A DNA stretch of 64,000 nt from an uncultured virus (IMG/VR IMGVR_UViG_3300001242_000018) (IMGVR_UViG_3300001242_000018:1-64000); one strand, 5' to 3'; shown: positions 21,232 to 58,927, counted from the stretch's first letter. Numbers and translations: made by a program. Notes: generated from the letters alone by a model not told the origin.

Positions 21232-22635
21232 GTGGGTGATCTAGTGGAATTAGAATCACTACCCGGCTATGGTACATTCTCAGGGACAGACATGGTTATA
21301 TCCATGGTATTTCCAGGTTGTAAGCCAATTACTCTTGGTCAAGCTACAACAGTTAGCTACTCCGTACTTCGCGATAAAAATGAAGTAAGAACCATAGGTC
21401 GAATTACTGCTAAAGGATTTACTAAAGGTGGGCGTAGAGTTGCCGGACAAATAATATTTACAGTATTCAATAGACATATTATTGAAGATATAAAAGAGCA
21501 GATTGATTATCTTAAAGATATTCCAAGAATACTTATGGACGAATTACCACCTTTCGATCTTATTATAACTTTGGCAAACGAATACGGGAGCTCGGCTTTT
21601 CTTGTTATCTATGGTATCACTACACTACATGAAGGTAAAGTATTCTCAGTTGAAGATATGATGACAGAGAATACATTTCAATATCTAGCTAGAGATATCA
21701 AACCATTAGGAGCTGGTTTTGGTGGTGTTAATTTCGTAGCTAGGACAGAATTCAGAGCAATGGATGAAATGCTGGCTAAGTTTAAAGTAGAAAATCTAGC
21801 TCCCGAGATTGCGGCTGCAGAATGGGAAAGGAAAGCGGCTGAGATGCAAGCAATCATTGATGCACAAATATCTCAGATTCCTCCTGCATCTAGTTCTACA
21901 ACAACAGTTTCGCCAGTACAATCACAGACTTCAGAGAGTTCTGGATATAAGATAGGTAGTGTAAAGCTTAAAGTGTTTGTTAGAGACGAAGATAGTCATC
22001 CTCTAAATCTAGCCAAAGTTCGGATATGGGTAGCGAAGAAAAACAGAGCTTTTCCTTCAGAACCTAATTTCTATACATGTGGTGATGATCATATGGTCGA
22101 ATTTGACCTCGAGGATATGCCTATATACGATACTCCTGGTGGGAATCATGCCGACGATCTAGTTAGGATTAGAGCAGTATGTGATGGATATTCTGATGAT
22201 GTTCAGACAATTTATCTTTCAGACGAATTAGAAAATGGCGTAGCTGATAAAACTATGGTTTTGAAGTATTCTACAGGTTCTTTTACAATGATCCGAATAC
22301 GGCCCGAACAAGCTGTAATCGAAGAAGATATGAATTACAGAGAGATCTTTGCTGCCAGGCTCTTTTCTAATGGATACAAATTAAGTGATGAGCCTGTTAC
22401 ATGGATGTGGTGGGTTGATTGTATTGAGAATACAATCAACCCAAATTCAATTAAAGAACTACATCAAAAAGGAGATACTACCGGTAGTGACGGAGTTACT
22501 ACATTCGATGCTATAAATGAGATTAAGAAACTATATCCTCAATTTGATCTTGTAAACGGAGTGCAAATAAGACTCTCGTGTGTAGCTAATCGTGGAGGAA
22601 CAATTCCTTGTGCATGGATAATTAAGAGTAGGTGA
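21232..22635 (+). CDS. Tube-like protein paralogue 2 with C-terminal extension
   Basis: FSGTDM...GFTKGGRRVAGQIIFTVF...DELPPFDLIITLANEYG mirrors the tube gene. Start may be GTG 21244. Ends TGA TGA. Confidence 0.7.
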   Translation: MGDLVELESLPGYGTFSGTDMVISMVFPGCKPITLGQATTVSYSVLRDKNEVRTIGRITAKGFTKGGRRVAGQIIFTVFNRHIIEDIKEQIDYLKDIPRILMDELPPFDLIITLANEYGSSAFLVIYGITTLHEGKVFSVEDMMTENTFQYLARDIKPLGAGFGGVNFVARTEFRAMDEMLAKFKVENLAPEIAAAEWERKAAEMQAIIDAQISQIPPASSSTTTVSPVQSQTSESSGYKIGSVKLKVFVRDEDSHPLNLAKVRIWVAKKNRAFPSEPNFYTCGDDHMVEFDLEDMPIYDTPGGNHADDLVRIRAVCDGYSDDVQTIYLSDELENGVADKTMVLKYSTGSFTMIRIRPEQAVIEEDMNYREIFAARLFSNGYKLSDEPVTWMWWVDCIENTINPNSIKELHQKGDTTGSDGVTTFDAINEIKKLYPQFDLVNGVQIRLSCVANRGGTIPCAWIIKSR

Positions 22636-45693: not shown

Positions 45694-46080
45694 ATGAATC
45701 TTAATAACGGTATCTTACAGACGATTTACAAAAAGGTAGTAGCGCCGGCTATAGCTAACGTTACTAAAGACGTTAGAGGGACTGTTACAGAATACTATCC
45801 AGAACAAAAGAGATGTAAGGTAAGATTTAGAGACCCTAATAGCCGTGGTATATGTGAATTGGTAGTACCTATACAAATCCAGGGTGGAATTAATCACCCT
45901 GGCCCATTTCCGGGAGAAGATGTACAAATCGTATTCCCGGGCGGTAATTATACCTTCGGTTATATAAGTGGGGTTCTAGATCTTAATTATAGCTCATCTA
46001 CAAGGGGTAGAAGACAAACCCATAGACGGAAGGGTTCTTTTATACCAGATATGATAGGTGAAAGGACTGGTGAGTTGTAA
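45694..46080 (+). CDS. Baseplate spike N-terminal OB-fold-like protein
   Basis: GTVTEYYPEQKRCKVRF...PFPGEDVQIVFPGG resembles the gp5/gpV OB domain. Position after the hub. Confidence 0.6.
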   Translation: MNLNNGILQTIYKKVVAPAIANVTKDVRGTVTEYYPEQKRCKVRFRDPNSRGICELVVPIQIQGGINHPGPFPGEDVQIVFPGGNYTFGYISGVLDLNYSSSTRGRRQTHRRKGSFIPDMIGERTGEL

Positions 46081-46604
46081 TGGCGTACGGGGGTCAATCA
46101 TTACGTTTAAATGAATATGCGAATAAACCAACAGATAACCCGTTACTCGAACTAAAACAAAGTGCGGAAAATGTAAGGTTTCCATCCGGTTCCGAACCAG
46201 CTTTAACACATCCTTTTAATACAAGTATTGTTAAGATACGAGACAATGGTTGTATTGATATTTTCTGTGGTACTAATGTCGGTATTAGATTAGATCCTAA
46301 CCTAGCTAACATATCGCTAATTACCGATGGAGAACGTCATCACACCGGATATTTAAGAGAATGGATACAAAAGGATGTAGAAAGACATGTTGGCCGTAAC
46401 ATTTTAACCAAGATAGGTGGTAATATCTATTTAGAAGCGCAGGGAAATTGTACTGTTAATATTGGTGGCAATGCCGACCTTAACATCGGCGGGAATGCTG
46501 ACATAGAAATAGGCGGAAATGTAAAGATTGATAATGAAGGTACCGTAGAATGGATGTCTGGTGGGAATATGTATTTCGCGGCACCTAACTACTTCTTCTC
46601 ATAA
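46080..46604 (+). CDS. Baseplate spike beta-helix protein (gp5 C-terminal-like)
   Basis: 8-residue repeats IGGN-x-x-x-x (KIGGNIYL, NIGGNADL, NIGGNADI, EIGGNVKI). Confidence 0.7.
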   Translation: MAYGGQSLRLNEYANKPTDNPLLELKQSAENVRFPSGSEPALTHPFNTSIVKIRDNGCIDIFCGTNVGIRLDPNLANISLITDGERHHTGYLREWIQKDVERHVGRNILTKIGGNIYLEAQGNCTVNIGGNADLNIGGNADIEIGGNVKIDNEGTVEWMSGGNMYFAAPNYFFS

Positions 46605-46635
46605 ATTAACTCAAGCTTTGTACAGAGGTGATAAA

Positions 46636-46977
46636 ATGCCAGCAGCTTGTAGAATAGGTGATAGAATGAATGGCAGCGTCGGACACCACAATGGTCATGG
46701 TTGTCCAGATAACTGATGTGGTGGCCACTCGGTTACGGGTGGCCAAGTGACCGGGAGTCACAATATGTTTATTAACGGTAAGTCCGCAGCAAGACTAAGC
46801 GATACAGGTTATACAACCTGCCCATGTTGTGGAGCAGGATATACGAATGTACAGGCTAGTACTAGTTTATTTGTAAACGGTCGGGGTATTGTAAGAGTTG
46901 GAGATGGAGTGAATATTCATCTCCAAGGGGCCGGAAATATGGTAAGCGGTTCTAATAACTTCTTTGTTGCGAGGTGA
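46636..46977 (+). CDS. PAAR spike-tip protein with an in-frame TGA at codon 27 (candidate selenoprotein), 113 aa
   Basis: SD GAGGTG then ATG 46636: MPAACRIGD...GHHNGHGCPDN-TGA-CGGHSVTGGQVTGSHNMFINGKSAARLSD...CPCC...VRVGD...H...GSNNFFV. The three PAAR-like repeats are complete only if TGA 46714-46716 is read through. Confidence 0.85.
46722..46745 (+). promoter_or_regulatory. SECIS-like hairpin in the PAAR gene
   Basis: TGGCCACTCG-GTTA-CGGGTGGCCA: 10-bp stem with one G-U pair. The loop begins after 15 nt following the TGA. Confidence 0.7.
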
Positions 46978-46981
46978 GATG

Positions 46982-47389
46982 ATGCGAGTAGCTAAAGATA
47001 TTGCAATATCTCCGGACGGTGATTTTATCATTCGAGATCACGATCTGGCCGTAGCTAAAGAAGGGGAATTTCAGTTACAGTCTATTATTAATAGGATAAA
47101 AGCTGTAAGGATTAATTGGAGATTAGATCATATCGGGGCGGATATGGAAGATATCATAGGAATGCCTAATAGTCCCGATACGGCTCAGCTTACTATTGAT
47201 AAGATTACCTTTGCACTAACTGAAGACGATCTTATAGATAAGAAAGATATCTATATCAGACCAGTCCCTATATCGAAAACTACGATATTGTTCTTCTTAT
47301 TTGTTAACAGTCCTTATTTTGCACAACCTATTAGTTTAGAAATTGGTTTAGATCTTTCCTCCGGGGTTATCAAAGTAATGGAGGTTTAA
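46982..47389 (+). CDS. Baseplate wedge gp25/gpW-like protein
   Basis: DIAISPDGDF...DL...QSIINRIK...W...IGADMEDIIG. Lies between PAAR and J-like genes. Its SD GAGGTG overlaps the PAAR stop. Confidence 0.7.
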   Translation: MRVAKDIAISPDGDFIIRDHDLAVAKEGEFQLQSIINRIKAVRINWRLDHIGADMEDIIGMPNSPDTAQLTIDKITFALTEDDLIDKKDIYIRPVPISKTTILFFLFVNSPYFAQPISLEIGLDLSSGVIKVMEV

Positions 47390-47391
47390 AT

Positions 47392-48240
47392 ATGCTCCTA
47401 AAGATCAACAAGGATTTTGAAACCATAATGACAAATGCTATGAATAGATTAGCAAATTCTGAGGAATTATCAGAGATTAGTCGTGGCGGAGTAACTAGAC
47501 TTCTACTGGCTATCTTTAACGAGGAATTTGCTAAGAGTTCAGAAAGTAATGTTGATGGTTTTTATGACACATTAAAGAAAGAACTGGTTCAAGCTTTCTT
47601 GTCTTATGCAGGAGAAGACGCACTTGATGCGATAGGATATATGATGTACTGTAAACGATACGTTGATGAAAAGGATGAACCGTATCGTTATCGAATTAGT
47701 CAACAACTGTTAAGTATGGCTACCTCTAATGAAACGGCCGTACGTCTTGCTTGTCTGTCGGTACCCGGAGTAGATGATGTTATTATGAAAGCGTATACTC
47801 ACGGCACCGGTTCCGGCTCTATATATGTTATTAATAAAGATCCGGCTGAGTTACCAAATCTTATTAAACAAGTAACCACTGCAGCTAGAATGGTCGGCGG
47901 TTGGGGAACTAGAATTGACGTATTTCAACCTCGGTTCCTTAATGTGGAGATTCGTATACGTATAATCTTTTACAAGGATGTATCAGAACTAGATCAGAAC
48001 CTTATTAGAGGTACCGCAAAGATTAGTACAGAAGATTACCTAGCGAGTCGTAATGCTGGGGAACCCTTGGATGTTAAATATATAGAAGAGATTGTATCTA
48101 AGATCAGTTTAGAAATCTCTGAAGTACAGATATATTACTTAACTGTAAATGAGGAAACGGTACTGTTGGTAAAGCAGCTTTGCGCCTGGAATGAGCGTTT
48201 TATCCCCACTCGTAAAGGAAATGCGGTAATTATTAGTTAG
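47392..48240 (+). CDS. Baseplate J-like protein
   Basis: ALDAIG...EKDEPYRYRI...NETAVRLACLSVPGVDDV...GTGSGSIYV motif. Confidence 0.8.
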   Translation: MLLKINKDFETIMTNAMNRLANSEELSEISRGGVTRLLLAIFNEEFAKSSESNVDGFYDTLKKELVQAFLSYAGEDALDAIGYMMYCKRYVDEKDEPYRYRISQQLLSMATSNETAVRLACLSVPGVDDVIMKAYTHGTGSGSIYVINKDPAELPNLIKQVTTAARMVGGWGTRIDVFQPRFLNVEIRIRIIFYKDVSELDQNLIRGTAKISTEDYLASRNAGEPLDVKYIEEIVSKISLEISEVQIYYLTVNEETVLLVKQLCAWNERFIPTRKGNAVIIS

Positions 48241-48250
48241 GGGAGAGGAT

Positions 48251-49492
48251 ATGAGAAAGCTAAAAGATCATCAGCTAAATAGTGGTAGAGTAACTGCCAT
48301 AGAAAATGAAATATCAGAGGCTCGAGGTTCTTACGATAGGCTTAAGAAATATATCGATACCAGAGGTTATACCGATTTTAGATTAAACGAAGCTGTTTGG
48401 ACTGGTAGTGCTATTTATGTCCCTATAAATCAAGGTACTGCATTTATCATGGGTTACGTTGTTCAGTATTCAGATATGATTAATATTTATATTCCAGGAG
48501 CTATGCCTGAAACTACTTATTATTTCTTTATTAATACAAATGGTACTATCATTTATAGGAATACTCCAGAGGAATTAGAGACCGACATGATTATCGGTTC
48601 GGTTTCTACAGGTACTCAAGTAGATCAACTAATAACTAAAGACTTGCGTCATATCTTAAGAAAAGATGGTATTTACGAAGAAGTAGTAAAAGCCCGAGGT
48701 TCTTATGATAATCTTAAAAACTATATTGACAGTAAGAAATATCTTGAGCTTACCCTTGGTAAACCCGAAGTAGATGGCGTGAATGTTAAAGTTCCTATTT
48801 ACGGTGGTCGTTCTTATATACTTGAACAGCTAATTGAAAAAGAAGATCAGGTATTTACATTATTAAACCCTAACTTAAATACTACATATTATTTCTTCTT
48901 AGACCAACATGGTACTATCGTTTATGATACGATATTATCAGAATCTCGCTCTAAAATGATACTTGGTACCCTTGTTATAGGTGAGACGCTAGATCAACTA
49001 ATAACTAAAGACTTGCGTCGTATCTTAGATAAGGATGGAGTTAAAGAAGAAGTAATCGAAGCTAGGGGAGAGTATCCAACTTTAAAGGAACGTTTAGATA
49101 CCGAATTTGATATAACTACAAATATCGGTAACAAACGATCTGCTATTATCTGCATTAAGGATATATTATTTCCACACACAATAGGCTTAATTCAGGTTAT
49201 TATTCCAGAACATTTTGTAATGTCTAAGGTTATGATACGTGCTAATAATGCACCCATTGGCTCTGATTTAGTACTAGATATTAATAAGAATGATATTAGT
49301 ATTTTTACAGATCAAAGTACAAGACCACGCATTTCCGATGGACAAAATAGCGTTGTGGTCGAATCTATTAACGTGGATTTCTACGAGGGAGATATATTCT
49401 CTATTGATATAGATGAAACGGGTTTGATTACTCCAGGTGGTAAAGATTTGATGATAACCGTTAAGTTCGATCAGACCGGCGATAGGGGTTAA
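48251..49492 (+). CDS. Tail fibre/baseplate-associated protein with a tandem 123-aa duplication
   Basis: EARG(S/E)Y..LK motif occurs three times. Two ~123-aa units, then a C-terminal domain. Confidence 0.6.
   Translation: MRKLKDHQLNSGRVTAIENEISEARGSYDRLKKYIDTRGYTDFRLNEAVWTGSAIYVPINQGTAFIMGYVVQYSDMINIYIPGAMPETTYYFFINTNGTIIYRNTPEELETDMIIGSVSTGTQVDQLITKDLRHILRKDGIYEEVVKARGSYDNLKNYIDSKKYLELTLGKPEVDGVNVKVPIYGGRSYILEQLIEKEDQVFTLLNPNLNTTYYFFLDQHGTIVYDTILSESRSKMILGTLVIGETLDQLITKDLRRILDKDGVKEEVIEARGEYPTLKERLDTEFDITTNIGNKRSAIICIKDILFPHTIGLIQVIIPEHFVMSKVMIRANNAPIGSDLVLDINKNDISIFTDQSTRPRISDGQNSVVVESINVDFYEGDIFSIDIDETGLITPGGKDLMITVKFDQTGDRG
48621..49019 (+). repeat. Exact 30-bp direct repeat (48621-48650 and 48990-49019)
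   Basis: TAGATCAACTAATAACTAAAGACTTGCGTC occurs twice, 369 bp apart and in frame. Confidence 0.9.
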
Positions 49493-49536
49493 TATAGTAT
49501 TGGTCAAGAATTACTTTAAAGTGGGAGGTTGGAGTT

Positions 49537-50544
49537 ATGTATTTTACTGGTACAAGTCTTTACCCAGATGGTTTACTAGCTGATATCGCTGCTGCTGTAG
49601 TTAGTATTCCACAAGGTAAAACAGATCCCTATTGGGATAATATTACGTCAGATTCGCCAGTTGCTACAAATCTCTATAAACAAGTATTTAAATCTAGGGC
49701 TAAGGTAAATAGTCCAGACAGTAGAAACCTTTTCTGTGTAATCGGAGCTCTTGCTACGACTAGTGCGTTTAATAGCACCGCTAGTATTAGTGGTTATGCT
49801 CAAAATACTATCAATTCTAATTCTGGTCTTACATTAGGCGGGGCTCAGAATTATGTACCAGGAACTACCGGAGTAGCTGGTACGTTCGAAAATTTGATTG
49901 AACAATCTCTATTCTTAAGAGCGGGTGTATTACCGACTAATTTTGGTATAGGTAATGTGAACTGGCACTTAATCGTAGAACCAACATCCATCGTATTGGC
50001 TATTGAAATTAACGGAGACTCTAATGCAAGAGCGGTTGGTTTCTTCGGAACTGTCGATCCTCTCGAAGACCATCCGGATGGCATGCCTATCATCTGTCAG
50101 AGTACTACGCAAAGTCCTACTTTTGATAGGGCTTTAACTGCCGTATCGGGCCCTTATAATTACGTCAATCAAGATTATTATTGGTGTCAAGGTTCTTACG
50201 ATCCATATATGGACATCGGATATACAAGAAAGTTATTCTTAAGATCTGTTCCCGCTTATTACCATGATGGTGTTAATACCATGAATACAGTACCGCTTGG
50301 TGTCTTAACAAATATCTATACTTCAAGATTCGATAGAAGTAATATCCGAATTCTTGGTACAACAGGTTTCGCTGCCACGGTAGATACGGGTGAGAATAAA
50401 TACCTTGTAGTATTTCCTTATCCAGTAGCCTCAATCTATACTCCACAGTCTGGCGTAGGTACCCCCTTAGACGGGTTTAGAGCTAGAAAAACTATTAATA
50501 TAACTGAGAAAGATTATGCTATTGTGATTAAATATACTCCTTAA
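49537..50544 (+). CDS. Putative virion structural protein (paralogue of the core of 50563..53574)
   Basis: AQNYVPGTTGVAGTFEN motif shared with the next gene. GGAGG SD. Confidence 0.5.
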   Translation: MYFTGTSLYPDGLLADIAAAVVSIPQGKTDPYWDNITSDSPVATNLYKQVFKSRAKVNSPDSRNLFCVIGALATTSAFNSTASISGYAQNTINSNSGLTLGGAQNYVPGTTGVAGTFENLIEQSLFLRAGVLPTNFGIGNVNWHLIVEPTSIVLAIEINGDSNARAVGFFGTVDPLEDHPDGMPIICQSTTQSPTFDRALTAVSGPYNYVNQDYYWCQGSYDPYMDIGYTRKLFLRSVPAYYHDGVNTMNTVPLGVLTNIYTSRFDRSNIRILGTTGFAATVDTGENKYLVVFPYPVASIYTPQSGVGTPLDGFRARKTINITEKDYAIVIKYTP

Positions 50545-50562
50545 GGAGGTTTCATTAAAAAA

Positions 50563-53500
50563 ATGACTATTTATGCAACAAGATGTCAAATTAAAGATTT
50601 AGCATCGAACGTATGGAAACAGCTTGAAGCCGAAGGCTGGGAGAGTGTAATGTCTCGTCCTGAAGACGGTGTTATGAAGAAGCAACTTCCCACCGGCCCT
50701 CTCTTTATACGTATAACTCCGGTCATTGCAAATAGCGACCGTTTTACATTAGGCCCTGCTGAAAACTATCAGCCTGGTACCACGGGCGTAGGATTATCTA
50801 TCGACAGAACTACACCAGGCTTAGATCCTAATATGGAATCCTTTGAGATTAGTGTAGCTGATTTACCCACCTATGATGGTAATACTACCTTAACCATAGG
50901 AACTACTCCTGTTATCATTCCGGTATATAGCGGTAGTGTTAGGGTGGTAGCTGAGAAAATTCGCGATACGTTACTGAGCGACTCGGCAATAGCTATGGCT
51001 TACGATGTAATTGTAGACGTTAATGGTAAAGTTATAATTACAGCCAAAGATTCAAGGGCTATTGACTTTAATATGAGTATAACTGATACCATTACCGGTG
51101 TTACCGCAAGTGATATAGAAACGATACCTGGTATTACACCGGTTAATGAAGAACGCACTATTATTGTAAATAGTGGTGCTACTGTTTCTGGTACGCTTAA
51201 TATTAACTTTGATGACGGTACTATTATTAAGCCCGGTATTAAGTTTCCAGTAGTCGGTAACGATACAGCTGCTCAAGTTGCTGGTAAAATTAAGACAGCT
51301 TTAACTAGCGATAACGATATTAATACAGCATATACAATAACTAATGTGATAGATACTAATATAATAACCATAGCTTCTAAAACTGGTGGCCCTAAAAGTA
51401 TTACTATTACCATTACCGAAGTTCCTAACGGAGTTGTCAAGACAATTGCAGAAACTCAAATAGGTGTTACATCTGTAGCTGAAGTATTTGACTTAACGGT
51501 AACAGGTTCTCCTATTACCAGTGGGAATGTTAGCTTAATCTTAAATAATACTCCGGTAAATGTAACTGTAAGTAATGGTGACAATACTACGGAAGAAGTC
51601 GCGGCCAAGATTAGAAATGTACTAGCCACTGACACGGATGTTTCCGTCTCGTATACAATTTCCGGCTCTGGTAATCAGGTTATTATTACTAAGAATGATG
51701 TAGGCGCTGTAGATTTAACCATAGCTGTTGCTGGAAATAATACCGGCATTGGTGCCACCTTCGTTGAAACAACTCCCGGGGATGTTTCAATACAAGAGGT
51801 TAATACAATTACTGTTAACTCCGCTTGTACTGCTAATGGTACGATAAATGTATTCTTTGGTGATGGTGTAATTAATAAGACTATTGACGTAAACGTAGTA
51901 ACAGCTGATAGTCTTCAAGAAGTGGCCTCAGCTATACAATTTGCAGTAGATGCTTTAGCAGATTATGTCGCTATCGTTAACGATAATGTCGTAACCATTG
52001 CCGCCGCTTCCGCAGAGAGTCAAGTAGATGCTACTTTTAACCCTAATGATACTGGCACTACAGTTACTATTAATATAACTCAACAGGGTATTACCGGCGT
52101 AAAAGAGATTAATACACTTACGATTACAAACGTATCTAATATCTCACAAACCGGTGTAATTAACTTTAATGATGGAATAATTAATAAGTCAGTTAACTTT
52201 GATATTCTATCTACAGATACGATAGATACCTTGGCTGTTAAGATTGCTATTTTGTTAGAAAACGATGGTCAAATTGGTTCTAGTTATACAATAACCAGTA
52301 CAAATAATAACGTAATAATCTCACGAGACGCTACCGGCGCTGTTGATACTGTTGTTACATTAGGTGTAGTAGCTATCGAAGTAAATTGTTCTATAACTCA
52401 GTCTGTAGTCGGTGTAACAGGCGTCGCTGAAGTAAATACACTAACAGTCTTAACAGGTGCGATAAACGATGGTACTATTAGTATTAATTTAAGTGATGGT
52501 ATCTTAAATAAAACCTTAATCGCGACTTTAAATGGAGCTGATAGTTTCACATCTATAGTTAATAGGATTCGTACCGTTGCCGATGCTTTAGATAATTGGA
52601 ATGCTACTGTAGTGGATAATGTCGTAACTATTTCATCTACACTAATGGTTGACAATCCAGATCCTACTTTCGACGCTAACGATACAGGTACCGTTTTGAC
52701 CATTAGTGTATTAGCTCAAGGAGGTAGTGGTTCTAAAGAAGAAAATACTATCAAAGTGCTTTCCAATTGTACGACAACCGGGCTATTACAAATCTTTGTT
52801 AGCAATGGCATTATTAATAAGGAGATTCAGGTGTCGGTTACGAGTGGACAAACTGTATCACAAGTAGCCACTGCTATAAAGAACAAACTTACAGCTGAAG
52901 CCGAGGTAACCAATACTTACGATGTAACTATAAATGTTAGTAATATCGATTCAATCTTAGTAACACGTAAGACAATTGGCCCATTTAATACCACAATTAA
53001 ACTCGGATATCTTACCGGATTGGCCGGTACTTTTACTAACGATCAAAGTAAATCTGTATTCTTTGCCTCGGCTGTAATCGTAAAGACTTCACCATTTAAC
53101 TATAAGCTCTATACATTCGATGATCATATTGTCTTATCTATAATAGCAGAAGTAGCTATAGCTGGTGCTGTCAATGCATTGCATTATGTAGGACGGCTTA
53201 AGCTATTTGGAGTTGAACCTAATAATACAGCTGTCGTATTAGCTTCGACAAATATTGAAGGAAATTCTAAAATCTATCCACTTAAAGATAAAGCTAATAC
53301 TGTTAATGGGCCTGCTTACGATTTCTATTCAGCTTTGCCGCCATCTAACCCTGGCGGCGGCGGGTTGTATTATATGGCTCCTATCGAGGTTGGTAGTATT
53401 AGTGATGGTATTCGTGGAGAGATTGATCATGTTTATGCGATTCCGTTGTCGGGTGTAATCCAGGATGATACCATTACCGTAGGTAGTCAGGTGTATGATA

Positions 53501-53574
53501 TTCATACAGCAGGTTCGATCGGATATAGTAGTTTAGCAGGAACTAGAGCAGTTGCTGTATATAATCGCGGATAA
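50563..53574 (+). CDS. Virion fibre/appendage protein with about seven ~105-aa repeats
   Basis: Repeating E.NTITV...G.I.I...DG.INK...VA.KI...L...Y.I...N.V.I units, Thr/Val/Asn-rich. Confidence 0.65.
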   Translation: MTIYATRCQIKDLASNVWKQLEAEGWESVMSRPEDGVMKKQLPTGPLFIRITPVIANSDRFTLGPAENYQPGTTGVGLSIDRTTPGLDPNMESFEISVADLPTYDGNTTLTIGTTPVIIPVYSGSVRVVAEKIRDTLLSDSAIAMAYDVIVDVNGKVIITAKDSRAIDFNMSITDTITGVTASDIETIPGITPVNEERTIIVNSGATVSGTLNINFDDGTIIKPGIKFPVVGNDTAAQVAGKIKTALTSDNDINTAYTITNVIDTNIITIASKTGGPKSITITITEVPNGVVKTIAETQIGVTSVAEVFDLTVTGSPITSGNVSLILNNTPVNVTVSNGDNTTEEVAAKIRNVLATDTDVSVSYTISGSGNQVIITKNDVGAVDLTIAVAGNNTGIGATFVETTPGDVSIQEVNTITVNSACTANGTINVFFGDGVINKTIDVNVVTADSLQEVASAIQFAVDALADYVAIVNDNVVTIAAASAESQVDATFNPNDTGTTVTINITQQGITGVKEINTLTITNVSNISQTGVINFNDGIINKSVNFDILSTDTIDTLAVKIAILLENDGQIGSSYTITSTNNNVIISRDATGAVDTVVTLGVVAIEVNCSITQSVVGVTGVAEVNTLTVLTGAINDGTISINLSDGILNKTLIATLNGADSFTSIVNRIRTVADALDNWNATVVDNVVTISSTLMVDNPDPTFDANDTGTVLTISVLAQGGSGSKEENTIKVLSNCTTTGLLQIFVSNGIINKEIQVSVTSGQTVSQVATAIKNKLTAEAEVTNTYDVTINVSNIDSILVTRKTIGPFNTTIKLGYLTGLAGTFTNDQSKSVFFASAVIVKTSPFNYKLYTFDDHIVLSIIAEVAIAGAVNALHYVGRLKLFGVEPNNTAVVLASTNIEGNSKIYPLKDKANTVNGPAYDFYSALPPSNPGGGGLYYMAPIEVGSISDGIRGEIDHVYAIPLSGVIQDDTITVGSQVYDIHTAGSIGYSSLAGTRAVAVYNRG

Positions 53575-53586
53575 GTTGGTGATCAC

Positions 53587-56500
53587 ATGGCAAAGGACTC
53601 TTTGCAATTTAATATCTATGATAAAGAGTCATTTGTCATCCCAAATATTGACGGCATCGATTTTCTAGTTGATGCCGTCACTTTACATAAAACAGTACAT
53701 GAGTATGTAAAGGACGGGCTATTAATCGATTTGATTGCTGCCCGAGCTACAGAGGATGACAAACATGGCTCTAATCCATTATCTACATGGATTAATCTCG
53801 CTGCAAGCGGAGATTGGAAGTTGACCGAGCTTTCTGACTTTAACTTTATTTCGGACGGCTGGATAGGGGATGGAACTAATGCAAATCCCTATGCTCTTTT
53901 ATTTAACGGTATAAATAGTAAATGCACTCTTAGCTATAATCCTGTTTATGATACCTTTACCCTGGAAGCGTGGGTTCAGACCGATCAATTACACCAGATT
54001 GATAATGAGATAAATACAGGTTCTTCTCCAGGATTAGATGGTCAAAAGTATTTGTTTTATCCTTCTAAATATATAGATACTAGAGTTGGTGCAGGGGTAT
54101 CTATAGGTTCTAACGGAGTTAGTGTTTACGAATACGGAGATGCTCATTTTCCCGCAGTGGCCGTTTATAGCGGTGAGGTTACGGGAATAACCCATGTCAT
54201 TGTAGAGTATATAGATAGGCAACCGTTTATTTATATTAATGGAGTATTGGTACGTATTGGACTTAAGTCTAATATGACACGAGTATGGTCACCAATTATT
54301 ATGGGCGCAGGCCCTTATGGAGCCTTTGATGGTTGTGTTATTATGGCCAGAATATATAATAGAGTACTTAGTCAAGAAGAGAAACAAATCAACTATCAGG
54401 CTGGATTTGTATTATTCTCTTATCCTATAATCCCTTATCACATTACTACCGGAGATAATCAGATAGATTGTAGCGAAGTTAAAAAGATCCTTAATATAAT
54501 GGCTGTACAAATAGAACCCGAGGGTACTTTGTTAAGATACTTGGTAAGCTTTGATAATAAAGGTAGCTGGCTAACTTATAATACCGTATGGCAAGAAGCG
54601 TCACTTGACGATATAGATAGAGTAGGTATGACAGCAGACGAACTAAATACTGTAGATTGGAACTATTTTCAACCGGGCGTACATGGAAATTTAAATATAG
54701 CAGTTGCTCTTGCTACCATAGATATAAGTATTACACCATCTGTAAGTAAACTTTTAATAGAATACGTCGGAAACTTACTAGGCGTAATTACTAGGACAAC
54801 TATAGCATGTTATATAAATAACGTATCAGAAGTTACCTTTACTCATCCTTCTGATGAAGTAGAGAATATACCAACAATAGTATCTAGCGGAGCTGCTATA
54901 GATACAATAGCTGGTACTATAAGCAATACCTGTAGAATTAATGGTATTAAAGAAAGAATGGATAATAGTATAAATATTCCTATCTTATCGCGAGCTGGAG
55001 CTTTAATTGCGAGTCATTTAGTAGGAGTTTATAAAAGTAGTCATAATAACGAGGAAGATAAGATAGACTTTTTAATTATTAATGATCTAATTAGTATCGA
55101 TCCCGTTATACCTAAACTTTCTGGTAATGTTTTAGAGTATTTAAAAGGTCTTCATATACCGTCTTACTACAGTACTAAACCTTTAGATTTGATATGTGAG
55201 ACTGTTGACATTGAAACATTAAAGTCGATTCAAATATTGGATAAAACACCTTCTATATTTACTTCTATATGTAGCGATCGACCGATTAATATAACCGTTA
55301 CTACAGATGATTATACAAGGATAGATACATCTAATATAGTAACAATTAAAGACATAAATAAGGACTATTACAGTAATGGAAATGAAAGATTCTTATTTAG
55401 CTTTGACAATAGAAATACTTGGTATTCTTATGATTATAGTACCAACCAATGGGTTATTGTAAGTTTAGATGATATTCAGGAGAAAGGAATGACATTTTGG
55501 CAAGTTAGTTCTATTCCTGAAGAAACTTGGAGTACAAAGTTGTCAGAATGGTTAGACATGGCTATTAGATTAATAGCCTATCCTAGCGATAGTAATGAAA
55601 CAATATACGATTTCACTTATACCGGCAATTACATAACATGGATAGCACCTTTTACAGGCGATTACCGATTAGAAGTATGGGGTGCTGAAGGTGGATTGCC
55701 GGGAGGAAGTTCAATAACCGGTGGTCTCGGAGGTTATACTAAAGGTACGATTACTTTAACCCAGGGTGATATTTTATACATCTGTATTGGTGGATATCCG
55801 GGTCGTGCTAAAGCAGGAGGTTGGAATGGTGGAGGTAATGGAGGTACCGATACCAGTAGTAGTGTTCGTTATGGTGGTGGCGGTGGTGGCGCTACTGATA
55901 TAAGAGTTGGCGATACTTCTCTTTCTAATAGAATTATTATTGCTGGCGGTGGCGGTGGCGGTGGCGAGTATGGAAATTCTCGTTACGGCGCTGGCGGCGA
56001 AATACAAGCACAATCGGGCGCTGGTCAATTAACTACCAATCCAGCACGAACGGGTGCTGGTTATCAATGGTCTTGGGGTGGTGGAGGAGGTTCTCAAACA
56101 CAAGGAGGTGTAGGAGCCGGAACGTATGTAAAAGGTGGGAATGGGACGCTATATCAAGGCGGCGCAGGAGATACTGGTTGTTGCTCTGGTTCAGGCGGTG
56201 GCGGTGGCGGTTATTATGGCGGCGCGGCCGGTGGTAACGATTCGCCACATGGTTCTGGATATTCAGCAAATGGCGGCGGTGGTTCTAGTTATACAGACGG
56301 AGTATCGGACGGTACTATGCAGATTGGAGTTCAAGCCGGGAATGGTAAGGCTAGAATAACCTTATTAAATACGACAATGTATACTGTTAATGGATTCACT
56401 TTCAGAACAATTGTTAATAAATTCGATGTCTACCAGATACCCATGTTAACGGGGTTTAAATTAGATATTCCTATTCACGAGGTTTTAGAAGAGAAAGATT

Positions 56501-57171
56501 CTCCTGTATTAATACCTTTTCGTACCTTAAAGAACTTTGATGGAAATGCTATAAGTATAATCACAGGACTTCTTACTAATAACTCAAGTCATTATATCAC
56601 AGGAATATTGGAATCTGGAGATTTAGATAAACTGTTCACTATTGATATTCCAAAGAGCTTTACAGGACTTAAATCGGAAATAGTCTGTAATTTCTTAATA
56701 AGTAAATCGAGTTATACCGAACCAGATGTTGATGATATCTTATATATACAAGATTTGCCTAAAGAACAGGTAAAGAGCGATACTATCTATTATGACAAAG
56801 AAGAACAGTTTGCAATGCTCAATATTATTGATAATCGTGAAGATACAGAATTTATAGTTATGACAAATGACTATAATAGAATTGACACAAGACAAGCCGT
56901 TGCTATTCAAGATATTGTGGCCGATTATCAAGAGATCGATGGTATACAAATTAGATTCTTATTAAGCTTTAATAATCGAGAAACCTGGTACATTTACGAC
57001 CACGATACTAGTTCTTGGATACAGAAGGGTATAGATAACATTCACAATACAGGAATGACATTCTGGCAACTTAAATCCATACCGCGAGATGCTTGGCATA
57101 AAGCTTTAACTAACTGGTTAAATGTTTGTGTAGGATTTAAAACCTTTAGTGACAACTGGATTTACGGATAG
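53587..57171 (+). CDS. Receptor-binding/tail fibre protein: LamG-like domain, glycine-rich domain and repeated SFDN...W modules
   Basis: FTLEAWVQT...YINGV...ARIYNRVLSQEE (LamG_3-like). YRLEVWGAEGG...GGGGGATDIR...RIIIAGGGGG (Gly_rich_2-like). Confidence 0.72.
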   Translation: MAKDSLQFNIYDKESFVIPNIDGIDFLVDAVTLHKTVHEYVKDGLLIDLIAARATEDDKHGSNPLSTWINLAASGDWKLTELSDFNFISDGWIGDGTNANPYALLFNGINSKCTLSYNPVYDTFTLEAWVQTDQLHQIDNEINTGSSPGLDGQKYLFYPSKYIDTRVGAGVSIGSNGVSVYEYGDAHFPAVAVYSGEVTGITHVIVEYIDRQPFIYINGVLVRIGLKSNMTRVWSPIIMGAGPYGAFDGCVIMARIYNRVLSQEEKQINYQAGFVLFSYPIIPYHITTGDNQIDCSEVKKILNIMAVQIEPEGTLLRYLVSFDNKGSWLTYNTVWQEASLDDIDRVGMTADELNTVDWNYFQPGVHGNLNIAVALATIDISITPSVSKLLIEYVGNLLGVITRTTIACYINNVSEVTFTHPSDEVENIPTIVSSGAAIDTIAGTISNTCRINGIKERMDNSINIPILSRAGALIASHLVGVYKSSHNNEEDKIDFLIINDLISIDPVIPKLSGNVLEYLKGLHIPSYYSTKPLDLICETVDIETLKSIQILDKTPSIFTSICSDRPINITVTTDDYTRIDTSNIVTIKDINKDYYSNGNERFLFSFDNRNTWYSYDYSTNQWVIVSLDDIQEKGMTFWQVSSIPEETWSTKLSEWLDMAIRLIAYPSDSNETIYDFTYTGNYITWIAPFTGDYRLEVWGAEGGLPGGSSITGGLGGYTKGTITLTQGDILYICIGGYPGRAKAGGWNGGGNGGTDTSSSVRYGGGGGGATDIRVGDTSLSNRIIIAGGGGGGGEYGNSRYGAGGEIQAQSGAGQLTTNPARTGAGYQWSWGGGGGSQTQGGVGAGTYVKGGNGTLYQGGAGDTGCCSGSGGGGGGYYGGAAGGNDSPHGSGYSANGGGGSSYTDGVSDGTMQIGVQAGNGKARITLLNTTMYTVNGFTFRTIVNKFDVYQIPMLTGFKLDIPIHEVLEEKDSPVLIPFRTLKNFDGNAISIITGLLTNNSSHYITGILESGDLDKLFTIDIPKSFTGLKSEIVCNFLISKSSYTEPDVDDILYIQDLPKEQVKSDTIYYDKEEQFAMLNIIDNREDTEFIVMTNDYNRIDTRQAVAIQDIVADYQEIDGIQIRFLLSFNNRETWYIYDHDTSSWIQKGIDNIHNTGMTFWQLKSIPRDAWHKALTNWLNVCVGFKTFSDNWIYG

Positions 57172-57179
57172 GAGGTAGT

Positions 57180-58925
57180 GTGGTGGATTTACAAGTATTT
57201 AATTTTAACTATACCGGTAGTCAACAAGAAGTAACACTACCTCCCGGTATATATAAGCTTGAAACATGGGGCGCTCAGGGTGGTAATAATGGAGCTCCCG
57301 GTGGTTACGCCTCTGGTATTTTAAACTTAGGGGATACTGAAACTCTTTATATATATATTGGAGGAATAGGAGCTCCTAATTCTACTGGTTGGAATGGAGG
57401 CGGTTTTGCTAGTCCTTATGGCGGCGGCGGTGGTGGTACCGATATACGAAGAGGAGGACAAACTCTTAATGACCGTATCCTGGTTGCTGGCGGCGGAGCT
57501 GGACACTCTCATACAGCTCAAGGTGGCGCTGGTGGTGGATTAATTGGTATTGGTGGAACTACTGGCAGTGGAGGTACACAAACACAAGGAGGTAGTTCAG
57601 GAGGAGTAAGTGGAACATATGGTAGCTTTGGTTACGGTAGTAATGGAATAAGTCATGGTTCTGGTGGCGGAGGTGGATGGTACGGTGGCGGAGGTGGATA
57701 TACTTGAGGTAGTTCCGGTGGAGGAGGTTCCTCCTATTATGGTGGAGTTCTAAACGGTATCACTACCCCTGGAATTCGTACTGGATATGGTAAGGTTGCT
57801 ATAACTTTACTTGCCTTACTGGGTATAGAAGAAGCTGTTGAAACTGCGGTATTTAATAGTTCTGGTAATTATCAGACCTTTATTGTACCAACTACAGGAA
57901 TTTATCAATTAGATCTTTTCGGTGCTGTAGGTGGTGCTTATTCTTACCCTGGTGGTTCTGGTAGTCATGTTCGTGGTCAAATGTTATTAGATTCCGGTCA
58001 AGAGTTATATATATTTGTCGGCGGGGATGGAACGGGCTTTATTGGCGAAGGTGGAGGATGGAATGGCGGTGGTAATGCCGGGCCGCTAGGGCCTGGTGCA
58101 GGTGGTGGCGGTGCTACCGATATTAGAAGAGGCGGTATAGAATTAGAAAATAGAATTATCGTTGCTGGTGGCGGTGGCGGCGGTGGGAATTTAAGCGCCG
58201 GTAGTTCCGGTGGAGAAACTTTGCATTTAACTACAATATTAGGCAATGGTCAAAACCATCCAGAGATTGGCGGTGGTGGCGGTGGTGGCTACTACGGTGG
58301 TATGGCCGGTGATATAAATAGGGGCGGATATGGCGGTTCTTCGTATGCTGGTAATTTACGTAACCCTATTATTAATACAAATATATGGTATAATGCAGGT
58401 TTGGTTATTATATCAAGATTGCCTACGTATACCTCGTTTATAAATTCATTAACGTTTAAGACTATCGTTAGTTCTTTCGAAATTATTAAGCTGACCTTCT
58501 TAATGGGCGATTTAAAATCTAGTAAGCCCGTCGATATAGAAATAGAAATACTATCATCCGATAGACAAGAGACTATACCTGAAGAGCAAATCGATACTGA
58601 AAAACTATATTGTATTGATAGTCAACAAATTACGATAACTGATGATAATAACCGAATTGATACAAGCGATACTATTACGATTGAAGATATAGAGATTGAC
58701 CCTAATCAGTTATACGATATTAAGATCTTATTAAGTTTTGACAATAGAAATACCTGGTTAGCTTATGATCATAATAGTCATACTTGGATAGAATATAATA
58801 CTAACGATGTTAGTATATATGGCATGGCCTTCTGGCAACTTAAATCTATACCAGAAGAAGTCTGGAGTGAGAAACTTTCTATCTGGTTAAATCTTTGTAT
58901 ATGGGTTCAGACAGGAGATGTATAG
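57180..58925 (+). CDS. Double glycine-rich domain tail protein with an in-frame TGA at codon 176 (candidate selenoprotein), 581 aa
   Basis: ORFs 57180..57707 and 57981..58925 are one frame. The 91 codons after TGA 57705-57707 (GSSGGGGSSYYGGVLNGITTPGIRTGYGKVAIT...YQLDLFGAVGG...) complete domain 1 and begin domain 2 without another stop. Confidence 0.82.
57715..57742 (+). promoter_or_regulatory. SECIS-like hairpin in the glycine-rich gene
   Basis: GGAGGA-GGT-TCCTCC core (57720-57734), extendable by CCGGT pairing with ATT and GG across bulges. Loop (A)GGU(U) lies about 18 nt after the TGA. Confidence 0.55.
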
Positions 58926-58927
58926 TA

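What the first reader, a model, noticed from the sequence alone, without database searches (positions are those of the whole stretch)
46636..58925. Candidate phage virion selenoprotein system: two tail genes with in-frame UGA plus SECIS-like hairpins
Seen: in ~60 kb of otherwise intact coding sequence I found two interrupted genes. Both are interrupted by TGA (46714 and 57705), not by TAA, TAG or a frameshift. Both TGAs are followed by a stem-loop whose GU-containing loop begins about 15-18 nt downstream. Established: bacterial Sec insertion uses SelB binding to a hairpin just 3' of the UGA, with an apical G/GU, and many anaerobic Clostridia encode Sec. Inference: the phage uses host (or its own, outside this window) SelA/SelB/SelD/tRNA-Sec to build tail-tip parts. 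That would tie infectious particle assembly to selenium supply and restrict host range. I know of no described selenoprotein phage structural proteins, but could not search. Alternatives are UGA-to-Cys recoding by selC*-type tRNAs, or UGA-to-Trp suppression as in stop-recoded phages.
Basis: partly seen in the sequence, partly recalled or inferred. Interest (0 to 1): 0.95.

Follow-up and report, generated by a model that had tools for sequence, protein, structure and literature searches.

The report
Read-through UGA codons in phage tail genes
Two tail genes of an uncultured groundwater phage each carry a genuine in-frame UGA stop that must be read through, one helped by a strongly selected RNA hairpin, but it is not settled whether selenocysteine or an ordinary amino acid goes in.

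Summary
Observation confirmed. TGA 46714-46716 interrupts a PAAR spike-tip gene (46636-46977). TGA 57705-57707 interrupts a two-domain glycine-rich tail gene (57180-58925). Both frames stay open. Two re-assemblies that may be the window's source match with 0 differences.

The PAAR site looks programmed:
- All five close relatives (72-75% identical) are called only from after this point.
- The 26 codons before the TGA are as conserved against outgroups as the rest.
- A perfect 10-bp hairpin built from rare codons starts 5 nt after the UGA. None of 5000 synonymous recodings matches it.
- The read-through product folds as a complete PAAR cone (pLDDT 93).

The second hairpin is only marginally unusual for its glycine-rich setting.

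Selenocysteine is not established:
- Cys aligns with the TGA in 0 of 22 PAAR and 1 of 220 glycine-rich homologues. Both sites sit in variable loops.
- No selA, selB, selD, tRNA-Sec, UCA-anticodon tRNA or release factor lies in the 137 kb held, which is about 61% of the genome.
- Genuine TGA stops have unusually close backup stops, which hints at general UGA leakiness.

My odds: hairpin-assisted read-through by a standard tRNA about 0.45; SelB/SECIS-type Sec or Cys insertion about 0.22.

The parts
46625..46632 (+). Shine-Dalgarno-like GAGGTGAT, 3 nt before the PAAR start codon
   Evidence: Read from the sequence. It shows that the 26-codon part upstream of the TGA has its own strong start signal.
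46636..46977 (+). PAAR spike-tip gene, 113 codons if TGA codon 27 is read through; its own stop is also TGA
   Evidence: Pfam PF05488 E 2.7e-11, 44 bits against cut-off 27. phrog_281. PDB profile hits 4jiw E 5e-16 and T4 gp5.4. AF2 pLDDT 93.0, and the top 6 Foldseek hits are PAAR proteins.
46714..46716 (+). In-frame TGA no. 1 (codon 27), context AAC TGA TGT
   Evidence: Unchanged in the X1, X2 and X5 contigs.
46722..46745 (+). Hairpin 1: 10-bp perfect stem (UGGCCACUCG / CGGGUGGCCA), loop GUUA at 46732-46735, -19.6 kcal/mol
   Evidence: 0 of 2000 and 0 of 3000 synonymous recodings reach it. It uses rare codons TCG 0.07, ACG 0.11 and GGC 0.16. 0 of 4000 in-frame coding positions have an equal hairpin.
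46747..46761 (+). Second small hairpin GUGAC-CGGGA-GUCAC directly behind hairpin 1
   Evidence: RNAfold centroid. Function not tested.
57180..58925 (+). Tail protein with two glycine-rich domains, 581 codons if TGA codon 176 is read through
   Evidence: Pfam PF12810 E 1.1e-47, residues 16-209 across the TGA. phrog_7388 E 1.7e-62. Paralogous to the domain in 53587-57171, 40% identity.
57705..57707 (+). In-frame TGA no. 2 (codon 176), context ACT TGA GGT
   Evidence: 0 differences in the X1 and X2 contigs.
57720..57734 (+). Hairpin 2: 6-bp stem GGAGGA/UCCUCC, loop GGU at 57726-57728, -8.8 kcal/mol
   Evidence: It meets all four bSECIS constraints, but 2.2-4.7% of synonymous recodings and 7.7% of positions in this phage's glycine-rich domains do as well. 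Whole-region z-score -0.03.
46080..46604 (+). gp5-like central spike gene just upstream (context)
   Evidence: phrog_430 baseplate hub E 1.7e-8. Pfam Gp5_trimer_C scores 23.5 bits, below its cut-off of 30.9.
47392..48240 (+). Baseplate J-like wedge gene (context)
   Evidence: PF04865, 27.9 bits against cut-off 21.1. phrog_6.
53587..57171 (+). Uninterrupted paralogous glycine-rich-domain tail protein (context)
   Evidence: PF12810 E 1.1e-26. Tyr aligns with the TGA of the neighbouring gene.

Best explanation
Both UGAs are programmed or tolerated read-through sites, not gene breaks. The ribosome decodes them with an ordinary aminoacyl-tRNA. The most likely one is Trp-tRNA, either a near-cognate host tRNA or a suppressor tRNA encoded in the unseen ~39% of the phage genome. 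The products are a full-length PAAR tip and a full-length glycine-rich tail protein.

At the PAAR site, a very stable hairpin abuts the mRNA entry channel when the UGA sits in the A site. I infer that it tilts the competition away from release factor 2. The low yield would suit a protein needed once per virion, and it could tie late-gene output to the state of the host's translation apparatus.

Shown:
- The TGAs are real.
- The full-length products are required, on the evidence of conservation and fold.
- The site-1 hairpin is selected.
- The interruption is old in the PAAR clade.

Inferred:
- Which tRNA decodes the UGAs.
- That the hairpin stimulates read-through.
- Any regulatory purpose.
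For: 1. Conserved interruption. Every close PAAR relative in two very large protein collections is called only from after the TGA position. P0004 and P0005 are 86 aa, P0006 and P0007 are 75 aa, and P0129 is 81 aa, at 72-75% identity. No full-length close relative exists.
2. Even conservation. Against 22 full-length outgroups, residues 1-26 are as conserved as residues 44-113. For example, 14/26 versus 28/70 with P0132, and 15/26 versus 24/68 with P0139. Residues 28-43 are also conserved (CGGHSVTG versus C[ST]GHSV[ST]G).
3. No consistent restart codon. Met44 is Leu in P0005 and P0129, and codon 33 is GTT here.
4. The read-through protein folds as a complete PAAR cone: pLDDT 93.0, pTM 0.85, N-terminal block 98. 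The top 6 PDB matches are PAAR proteins.
5. Hairpin 1 is selected. Observed -24.0 versus -10.7 +/- 2.9 kcal/mol for synonymous recodings, with 0 of 2000 reaching it, and 0 of 3000 in a second test.
6. The aligned residues in homologues are variable and never Cys, which fits an ordinary residue. For PAAR: Tyr 7, Asp 2, gap 13 of 22. For the glycine-rich domain: D 112, G 24, S 14, A 11, E 9, N 8, Y 6, T 6, W 5 ... C 1 of 220. The nearest paralogue has Tyr. Trp would be a conservative stand-in for Tyr.
7. Genuine TGA stops have nearer TAA/TAG backups. The median is 5 versus 12 codons. 10 of 13 versus 32 of 101 lie within 7 codons (Fisher p 0.002). After dropping the 19 controls whose next stop lies more than 50 codons away, the comparison is 10 of 13 versus 32 of 82 (Fisher p 0.012, Mann-Whitney p 0.034). 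This is what general UGA leakiness would select for.
8. In-frame TGAs confined to late structural genes are the known pattern of TGA-recoded phages (passages of bioRxiv 10.1101/2021.08.26.457843).
Against: - No hairpin-stimulated, non-Sec UGA read-through is established in bacteria or dsDNA phages, to my recall. My paper searches listed none.
- No UCA-anticodon tRNA is among the 11 tRNAs, nor among 69 low-threshold ARAGORN candidates.
- No RF-1-domain protein or TrpRS lies in the 137 kb.
- Only 2 in-frame TGAs occur against 590 TGG codons, and TGA still ends 13 of 114 genes. This is not a code-4 phage.
- If TGA and TGG were equivalent, some relatives should have drifted to TGG and been called full length. 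None was.
- The hairpins fit the SECIS model almost as well as they would fit any read-through stimulator.
- The backup-stop test was post hoc, with n = 13.
Confidence: 0.45

Rival explanations
1. SelB/SECIS-dependent insertion of selenocysteine, or of Cys by a selC*-type tRNA, using host machinery. Each hairpin would be a bacterial SECIS that recruits SelB with Sec-tRNA to the UGA.
For: - Both interruptions are UGA.
- Hairpin 1: loop GUUA with G then U in first place, 10-bp stem, -19.6 kcal/mol.
- Hairpin 2: loop GGU, 6-bp stem, spacing 18 nt, -8.8 kcal/mol. It meets all four constraints of the bSECIS model as given in the Fig. 2 legend of PMC13188914 (passages read). Hairpin 1 meets three and misses the spacing by 1 nt (15 versus 16-37).
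- The loop G lies 16-20 nt behind the UGA. A passage of PMC4605307 puts the conserved G at about 20 nt.
- Only 1.4% of 3000 random TGA triplets of this genome have such a hairpin.
- The UGA seems never to have been replaced by a sense codon in the PAAR clade. That is expected if only UGA can specify the residue.
- Site 1 gives ...GH-G-C-P-D-N-U-C-G-G-H..., a Sec next to a conserved Cys in a His/Cys-rich stretch.
- The phage carries NrdD and NrdG, so its host is probably an anaerobe. It comes from groundwater and sediment.
Against: - Cys aligns with the TGA in 0 of 22 PAAR homologues and 1 of 220 glycine-rich-domain homologues. According to PMC13188914, nearly all selenoproteins have Cys homologues.
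- Both positions are in hypervariable loops. The model's block for residues 21-30 has pLDDT 69.
- Both proteins are structural, not redox enzymes. Site 2 has no Cys nearby.
- Hairpin 2 is within the chance range for its context (2.2-7.7%; z -0.03). 2 of 13 genuine TGA stops also have a qualifying hairpin.
- No Rfam family, SECIS families included, matches at E <= 10.
- No selA, selB or selD. The best tRNA-Sec score of 40.6 bits, below the 47-bit threshold, belongs to a tRNA-Ser with anticodon UGA.
- The enrichment of backup stops has no place in a site-specific mechanism.
Confidence: 0.22
2. Mixed case. The PAAR UGA is programmed (by either mechanism above), while the TGA in the glycine-rich gene is a plain nonsense mutation in a redundant tail-fibre paralogue.
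For: - No close relative of this gene exists to show conservation. The top identities were 46-56% in two searches.
- Its hairpin is not clearly non-random.
- An intact paralogue lies next door at 53587-57171.
- The truncation falls inside a domain, so no useful short product is expected.
Against: - The 405 codons after the TGA show no further damage and still match the family profile through residue 209.
- The TGA is fixed in two samples, with no variant at 10% or more.
- It is again TGA, in a late gene, with three rare TCC codons (relative use 0.08 each) forming the stem.
Confidence: 0.15
3. Termination at the UGA followed by re-initiation gives a split PAAR: a 26-aa peptide plus a 70-76-aa piece. 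The hairpin would mask the restart site until the upstream ribosome opens it.
For: - GTG 46747 and ATG 46765 follow the hairpin, and GGGUGG and GGGAG lie upstream of them.
- Gene callers start the relatives at codons 33, 38 or 44.
Against: - Residues 28-37 (CGGHSVTGGQ) would then be untranslated, yet they are conserved against outgroups: 8-11 of 16 identical over residues 28-43.
- The candidate restart codons are not conserved. Met44 is Leu in P0005 and P0129, and codon 33 is GTT here.
- Site 2 has no start codon for 91 codons.
Confidence: 0.05
4. The host reads UGA as a sense codon throughout, either code 25 (Gly) or code 4 (Trp). Such lineages occur in groundwater.
For: - Groundwater source.
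- Gly aligns with TGA no. 2 in 24 of 220 homologues, 12 of them with the flank GYTGGS.
- Short distances to backup stops after TGA 'stops'.
Against: - Only 2 in-frame TGAs in 43,474 codons, against 3092 Gly and 590 TGG codons.
- Code 11 gives 95% coding cover.
- 13 genes end at TGA. That includes the PAAR gene itself, at the same C-terminus (…FFVAR) as its relatives.
- The nearest phages infect Bacillus and Moorella.
- This reading leaves hairpin 1 unexplained.
Confidence: 0.04
5. Both TGAs are assembly errors or fresh inactivating mutations, and the hairpins are coincidental.
For: This is the simplest reading of an interrupted gene in a metagenome contig.
Against: - The window matches two Logan re-assemblies (X1, X2) with 0 differences, though these runs may be its own source. 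In a run of another study (X5), a contig that starts 17 nt before site 1 also shows 0 differences.
- The interruption is shared by five diverged relatives.
- Both flanks are conserved.
- The hairpin is reached by 0 of 5000 synonymous recodings.
Confidence: 0.03

Closest known systems
Bacterial Sec insertion at UGA by SelB and an in-ORF SECIS hairpin (archetype E. coli fdhF; bSECIS consensus as given in PMC13188914)
   Same: An in-frame UGA is followed at once by a stem-loop. Its small apical loop starts with G then U or G, about 16-20 nt behind the codon. The structure is selected within coding sequence (site 1).
   Different: There is no Cys/Sec pairing in homologues. Both sites are variable loops of structural virion proteins. 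Spacing at site 1 is 15 nt, one short of the consensus range. No Sec machinery was seen, and the host is unknown. To my knowledge no phage selenoprotein is described. None was among the 15 listed of 41 papers, and 'phage' and 'virus' each occur 0 times in the 2026 review's main text.
Stop-codon-recoded phages, TGA read as Trp in late genes (Borges et al., bioRxiv 10.1101/2021.08.26.457843; passages read)
   Same: In-frame TGAs sit only in late structural genes of a large phage whose presumed host uses the standard code. That paper describes a proposed path in which recoded stops first appear in structural and lysis genes.
   Different: There are only two sites. TGA still ends 13 genes. No suppressor tRNA, RF1 or TrpRS lies in the 61% of the genome held. 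A site-specific selected hairpin is not part of that model.
Programmed UGA read-through of the Qbeta coat gene giving minor protein A1 (recalled, not checked in a call)
   Same: A phage virion protein is made by low-level decoding of UGA, presumably as Trp, which sets a low copy number.
   Different: Qbeta is an ssRNA phage, and both of its products are functional. Here the short products (a 26-aa peptide and a domain cut at residue 175) are probably useless, and a strong hairpin is involved.
PAAR spike-tip proteins (E. coli c1882 4JIW, V. cholerae VCA0105 4JIV, T4 gp5.4 4KU0)
   Same: Family and fold match: Pfam above cut-off, PDB profile E 5e-16, TM 0.69-0.80 normalised by target length. The gene also sits directly after a gp5-like spike gene.
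   Different: None of those genes is interrupted. This one and its clade carry an in-frame stop in the loop before the conserved C-x-G-H.

Membership tests
Bacterial selenoprotein gene (SelB/SECIS recoding) | In-frame UGA with the reading frame continuing | tested here: met
   Both frames continue, and Pfam domains cross or flank the UGA.
Bacterial selenoprotein gene (SelB/SECIS recoding) | bSECIS hairpin: loop 3-9 nt with G in the first two places, stem 4-16 bp, 16-37 nt from the UGA, MFE <= -7.5 (PMC13188914) | tested here: inconclusive
   Site 1 meets three constraints and has a spacing of 15 nt. Site 2 meets all four, but so do 7.7-9.2% of positions in this phage's glycine-rich domains. 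No Rfam match.
Bacterial selenoprotein gene (SelB/SECIS recoding) | Cys aligned with the UGA in homologues (Cys/Sec pair) | tested here: not met
   0 of 22 PAAR homologues. 1 of 220 glycine-rich-domain homologues.
Bacterial selenoprotein gene (SelB/SECIS recoding) | selA, selB, selC and selD available in the phage or its host | not testable with these tools
   None in the 137 kb held. The record is about 61% complete and the host is unknown.
Bacterial selenoprotein gene (SelB/SECIS recoding) | UGA and hairpin conserved in orthologues, with covariation | tested here: inconclusive
   Five relatives are all called only from after the site. Their DNA could not be obtained, so codon identity and covariation are unknown.
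Stop-codon-recoded phage (TGA as sense, code-4-like) | Many in-frame TGAs, and TGA depleted as a terminator | tested here: not met
   2 in-frame TGAs in about 43,500 codons. TGA ends 13 of 114 genes.
Stop-codon-recoded phage (TGA as sense, code-4-like) | Phage-encoded suppressor tRNA(UCA), with or without RF1 and TrpRS | tested here: inconclusive
   None found in 137 kb. About 39% of the genome is unseen.
Stop-codon-recoded phage (TGA as sense, code-4-like) | Recoded stops confined to late structural and lysis genes | tested here: met
   Both lie in the baseplate and tail module.
PAAR-repeat spike-tip protein (PF05488) | Profile match above the curated cut-off, and the PAAR cone fold | tested here: met
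   44 bits against cut-off 27. 4jiw E 5.1e-16. Model pLDDT 93, and the top 6 Foldseek hits are PAAR.
Glycine-rich domain protein (PF12810) | Profile match above the curated cut-off | tested here: met
   163.5 bits against cut-off 24.5, two stretches.

The most novel reading that the evidence does not exclude
The phage builds selenocysteine into its virion: one Sec next to a conserved Cys at the metal-binding tip of the PAAR needle, and one in a tail-fibre loop. It would do this by presenting its own SECIS hairpins to the host's SelB. These would be the first phage selenoproteins and the first structural, non-redox bacterial-type ones. They would make infectivity depend on the host's Sec pathway and on selenium supply.
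Probability: 0.22. Interest if true: 0.92.

Novelty: new variant of a known kind. Interest (0 to 1): 0.66.

Why it matters
Whichever mechanism holds, a dsDNA phage appears to keep an in-frame UGA in its spike-tip gene, together with a dedicated RNA hairpin.

- **If the decoder is an ordinary tRNA**, this would be a hairpin-assisted programmed read-through in a bacterial system, a class known mainly from eukaryotic viruses. It would also be a simple way to set the one-per-virion dose of PAAR, or to couple late-gene output to the host's termination efficiency.
- **If the decoder is SelB**, this would be the first phage selenoprotein, with consequences for host range and for selenium ecology in anoxic aquifers.

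There is also a practical point. Gene callers truncate this PAAR clade in every database entry I found, so such sites are systematically hidden.

Tried and rejected
**Searches for relatives' DNA (none usable)**
- Viral contigs: four scans, with PAAR, the glycine-rich protein, a PAAR alignment and baseplate J. None gave a usable locus. The one confirmed match yielded no locus, probably because it was the withheld own record.
- Metagenome contigs: one scan gave two false loci. L001 and L002 match only on CPCCGAG inside an unrelated 673-aa ORF.
- Genome contigs: a scan with the PAAR-clade alignment confirmed nothing.
- Phage collection: megablast found no match. tblastn found only Bacillus phage G gp118, 31.9% identical and intact.
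- An alignment of more distant PAAR homologues was too diverse to scan with.

**Glycine-rich protein**
- No close relative turned up in either protein search.
- My first residue tally (C in 51 of 120) was an artefact of the C placed at the TGA in the query. I replaced it with the tally made with X at the break.

**Other candidates checked and dropped**
- A possible third interrupted gene at 78403 on the minus strand is antisense to an 801-aa plus-strand gene.
- The tRNA that scores best on the tRNA-Sec model has anticodon UGA, so it is tRNA-Ser.
- A tRNA-like remnant at 110361-110415 has a CAU anticodon loop and no acceptor stem.
- Bypassing of the T4 gene 60 kind (recalled) is rejected, because the would-be gap encodes conserved residues.
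- Frameshifting is rejected, because the frame is unchanged directly after each TGA.

**Host and relatives**
- The syntenic region of Moorella phage MTATph1 shows no PAAR-like ORF by eye.
- Host inference from the phage UvrD gave only 33-44% identity to Bacillota and assorted other phyla, which is not informative.

**Sediment run X5**
- Cover of TGA no. 2 is not visible in the truncated table, so I make no claim from it.

Full report
**What the window is**

The window is the first 64 kb of a 137,036-bp linear virus record with 38.6% G+C. CheckV rates the record 61% complete. The phage's own PAAR fragment is also on record on a contig of 220,066 bp, so roughly 39% of the genome was not available to me.

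The window holds the structural module of a large myovirus:
- major head, two sheath-like genes, and virion proteins of 1933, 2700 and 2073 aa;
- a gp5-like spike, PAAR and baseplate J;
- two glycine-rich-domain tail proteins.

The nearest named phages are Bacillus phage 0305phi8-36 (38% identity over a 375-aa virion protein) and Moorella phage MTATph1 (32%). The phage encodes NrdD (with an intein) and NrdG, so an anaerobic or facultative host is likely. Public runs that hold the DNA are groundwater and sediment metagenomes.

Site 1:
- ATG 46636, behind GAGGTGAT, opens a PAAR gene that meets TGA at 46714-46716.
- It continues in frame to its own stop, TGA 46975-46977.

Site 2:
- GTG 57180 opens a gene that meets TGA at 57705-57707.
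- It stays open for 405 more codons, the first 91 without any ATG, GTG or TTG.
- The Pfam glycine-rich domain runs from residue 16 to 209, across codon 176.

Assembly check:
- Logan contigs of two groundwater runs span 46000-59500 with no difference, at word depth 21.7 and 29.2. These runs may be the window's own source.
- No run shows another letter at either TGA.
- In the independent sediment study, a 447-nt contig that begins 17 nt before TGA no. 1 is identical. Its cover of TGA no. 2 is not visible in the truncated table.

The genome as a whole uses the standard code:
- 115 ORFs cover 95% of it.
- Stops are TAA 71, TAG 30, TGA 14. Thirteen of the TGA stops are genuine terminators.
- A possible third interrupted gene was an antisense artefact.

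**The PAAR interruption is old and the whole protein is needed**

A word-indexed search of 5.8 billion protein clusters and an exhaustive phmmer search of 1.84 billion representatives found five close relatives at 72-75% identity. All of them are called only from after the TGA position:
- P0004 and P0005, 86 aa, from codon 33;
- P0006 and P0007, 75 aa, from codon 44;
- P0129, 81 aa, from codon 38.

No full-length close relative exists. Full-length homologues begin at 53% identity or less. At least P0004 and P0006 lie on long contigs (30.8 and 125.6 kb), so contig ends do not explain the truncation.

I could not obtain their DNA. What is shown is therefore a conserved interruption somewhere before codon 33. 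It is not shown that it is TGA at codon 27.

Conservation against 22 full-length outgroups:
- Residues 1-26 are as conserved as residues 44-113 (for example 14/26 versus 28/70, and 15/26 versus 24/68).
- Residues 28-43 are 50-69% identical to the nearest outgroups, including the C-x-G-H-S-V-x-G motif.

Candidate restart codons are not conserved. Met44 is Leu in two relatives, and codon 33 is GTT here. This argues against termination followed by re-initiation.

With Trp at the break, the protein is predicted with pLDDT 93.0 and pTM 0.85. The N-terminal ten residues score 98, and the loop around the break (residues 21-30) scores 69. Its six best PDB matches are PAAR proteins, among them c1882, VCA0105, phiKZ gp163.1 and T4 gp5.4 (sequence profile).

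**The hairpins**

Hairpin 1:
- Five nucleotides after UGA no. 1 begins a perfect 10-bp stem with loop GUUA, at -19.6 kcal/mol. A small second hairpin follows it.
- It is built from rare codons: TCG 0.07, ACG 0.11, GGC 0.16 twice, CAC 0.26.
- When I redrew the same peptide from the phage's own codon usage, 0 of 2000 sequences (45 nt, MFE -24.0 versus -10.7 +/- 2.9) and 0 of 3000 (hairpin scan) reached it.
- No in-frame position among 4000 sampled has an equal hairpin.
- This RNA structure is under selection, and it sits exactly where a recoding signal would sit.

Hairpin 2:
- It is GGAGGA-GGU-UCCUCC, at -8.8 kcal/mol.
- It uses three TCC codons (relative use 0.08 each).
- However, 2.2-4.7% of synonymous redraws and 7.7% of positions in this phage's glycine-rich domains do as well. 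The regional z-score is -0.03.
- 2 of 13 genuine TGA stops also carry a qualifying hairpin.

Fit to the bSECIS consensus, as printed in PMC13188914 (passages read):
- Site 2 meets all four constraints.
- Site 1 meets three and has 15 nt instead of 16-37 between the UGA and the loop.
- A passage of PMC4605307 puts the conserved loop G at about 20 nt behind the UGA. Here it lies 16-20 nt behind.
- Only 1.4% of 3000 random TGA triplets in this genome have such a hairpin.
- Rfam has no match at E <= 10.

**What is against selenocysteine**

- PAAR: in the 22 full-length homologues the column holds Tyr 7, Asp 2 and a gap 13 times. Cys appears 0 times. The conserved Cys is the next residue.
- Glycine-rich domain, with X at the break: 220 of 240 homologues align across the site, with D 112, G 24, S 14, A 11, E 9, N 8, Y 6, T 6, gap 5, I 5, W 5, and C 1. 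The paralogue next door has Tyr.
- An earlier tally with many Cys came from the C placed in the query and is withdrawn.
- Both sites are variable loops in structural proteins.

Machinery in the 137 kb held:
- There is no selA, selB, selD, RF-1 domain or TrpRS.
- There is no tRNA-Sec. The best hit, 40.6 bits against a threshold of 47, is a tRNA-Ser with anticodon UGA.
- No UCA anticodon occurs among the 11 tRNAs or among 69 low-threshold candidates.
- These absences are weak evidence, because 39% of the genome and the host are unseen.

**A hint of general UGA leakiness**

- The 13 genes that truly end in TGA have their next TAA or TAG a median of 5 codons further on, against 12 for the 101 other genes.
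- 10 of 13 versus 32 of 101 lie within 7 codons (Fisher p 0.002).
- After dropping the 19 controls whose next stop lies more than 50 codons away, the comparison is 10 of 13 versus 32 of 82 (Fisher p 0.012, Mann-Whitney p 0.034).
- The test was post hoc and the sample is small. Still, it fits a host or an infected cell in which UGA is read through at appreciable frequency. It does not fit a purely site-specific mechanism.

**Weighing**

Pseudogenes or assembly error are very unlikely for PAAR, and unlikely but not excluded for the glycine-rich gene. A sense-UGA host (code 4 or 25) is contradicted by 2 in-frame TGAs among about 43,500 codons and by TGA terminators. Two readings remain.

1. **Decoding by a standard tRNA.** This would be a near-cognate Trp-tRNA or an unseen suppressor, with hairpin 1 as a stimulator.
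   - For: the variable, Cys-free positions; Tyr in the nearest homologues; the backup stops; and the known habit of TGA-recoded phages to place such codons in late genes (passages of 10.1101/2021.08.26.457843).
   - Weakness: a hairpin-stimulated, Sec-independent UGA read-through is not an established bacterial mechanism. That statement rests on my recall. Searches listed none.
2. **SelB/SECIS-type insertion of Sec or Cys.** This is the only established mechanism that pairs a UGA with such a hairpin. It would also explain why the clade never replaced the stop.

I put reading 1 at about 0.45 and reading 2 at about 0.22. The rest goes to the mixed case (site 2 a plain nonsense mutation), re-initiation, a recoded host, and error.

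**Novelty**

In-frame TGAs in phage late genes and SECIS-type hairpins are each known. A conserved UGA with its own selected hairpin in a phage spike-tip gene is, as far as my searches show, not described:
- One search found 41 papers with bacteriophage + selenocysteine + SECIS. None of the 15 listed concerns a natural phage selenoprotein.
- The 2026 selenoproteome review does not contain 'phage' or 'virus' in its main text.

I did not read those papers in full, and I did not see their supplements. Earlier notes of this scan concern cellular Sec candidates in other genomes. None concerns a phage, and none changed my reading.

Noticed in passing
G000 contig 112420-115806, minus strand (L006:8420-11806): Anaerobic ribonucleotide reductase NrdD (PF13597 E 4e-161) split by an intein with a LAGLIDADG homing-endonuclease domain. 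An NrdG-like activase lies at L007:10607-11107.
   Followed up: no
G000 contig 111221-111475, minus strand (L006:7221-7475): An 84-aa protein with an Acb2/Tad1 hairpin domain (PF24729 E 1e-20). It is a candidate sponge for cyclic-nucleotide defence signals.
   Followed up: no
G000 contig 107900-111000, minus strand (L006:3900-7000): A cluster of 11 tRNAs interspersed with small ORFs and an HNH endonuclease. It also holds a tRNA-like remnant (110361-110415, CAU loop, no acceptor stem) and repeated sequence blocks and hairpins between the tRNAs, for example the block ending ...cacgtagtccactaaattgcagca, which occurs twice.
   Followed up: partly
whole 137-kb contig: Genes ending in TGA have unusually close in-frame TAA/TAG backups. 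The median is 5 versus 12 codons. There are three direct tandems (TGA-TAA at 15466, TGA-TGA at 22635, TGA-TAG at 94834).
   Followed up: yes
window 39464-45685 and 62021-64000 (the latter runs on to 72469 in the contig): Giant virion proteins. One is a 2073-aa protein carrying four cell-wall hydrolase domains (Amidase_2, 3D, NlpC/P60, M23). The other is an ORF of about 3480 aa that leaves the window.
   Followed up: no
window 55960-58290: Contigs of other depth in runs X1, X2 and X5 join the glycine-rich domains of the two neighbouring tail genes, skipping 680-2305 nt, with only 21-24 matching letters on a side. These are probably other organisms' GGN-rich sequence or recombinant tail-fibre variants. 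The question is not resolved.
   Followed up: no
window 46747-46765: The second small hairpin after the PAAR UGA presents GGGAG in its loop, 7 nt before ATG 46765. Gene callers take that ATG as the start. Met44 is not conserved in relatives, so it is probably not a real start.
   Followed up: partly
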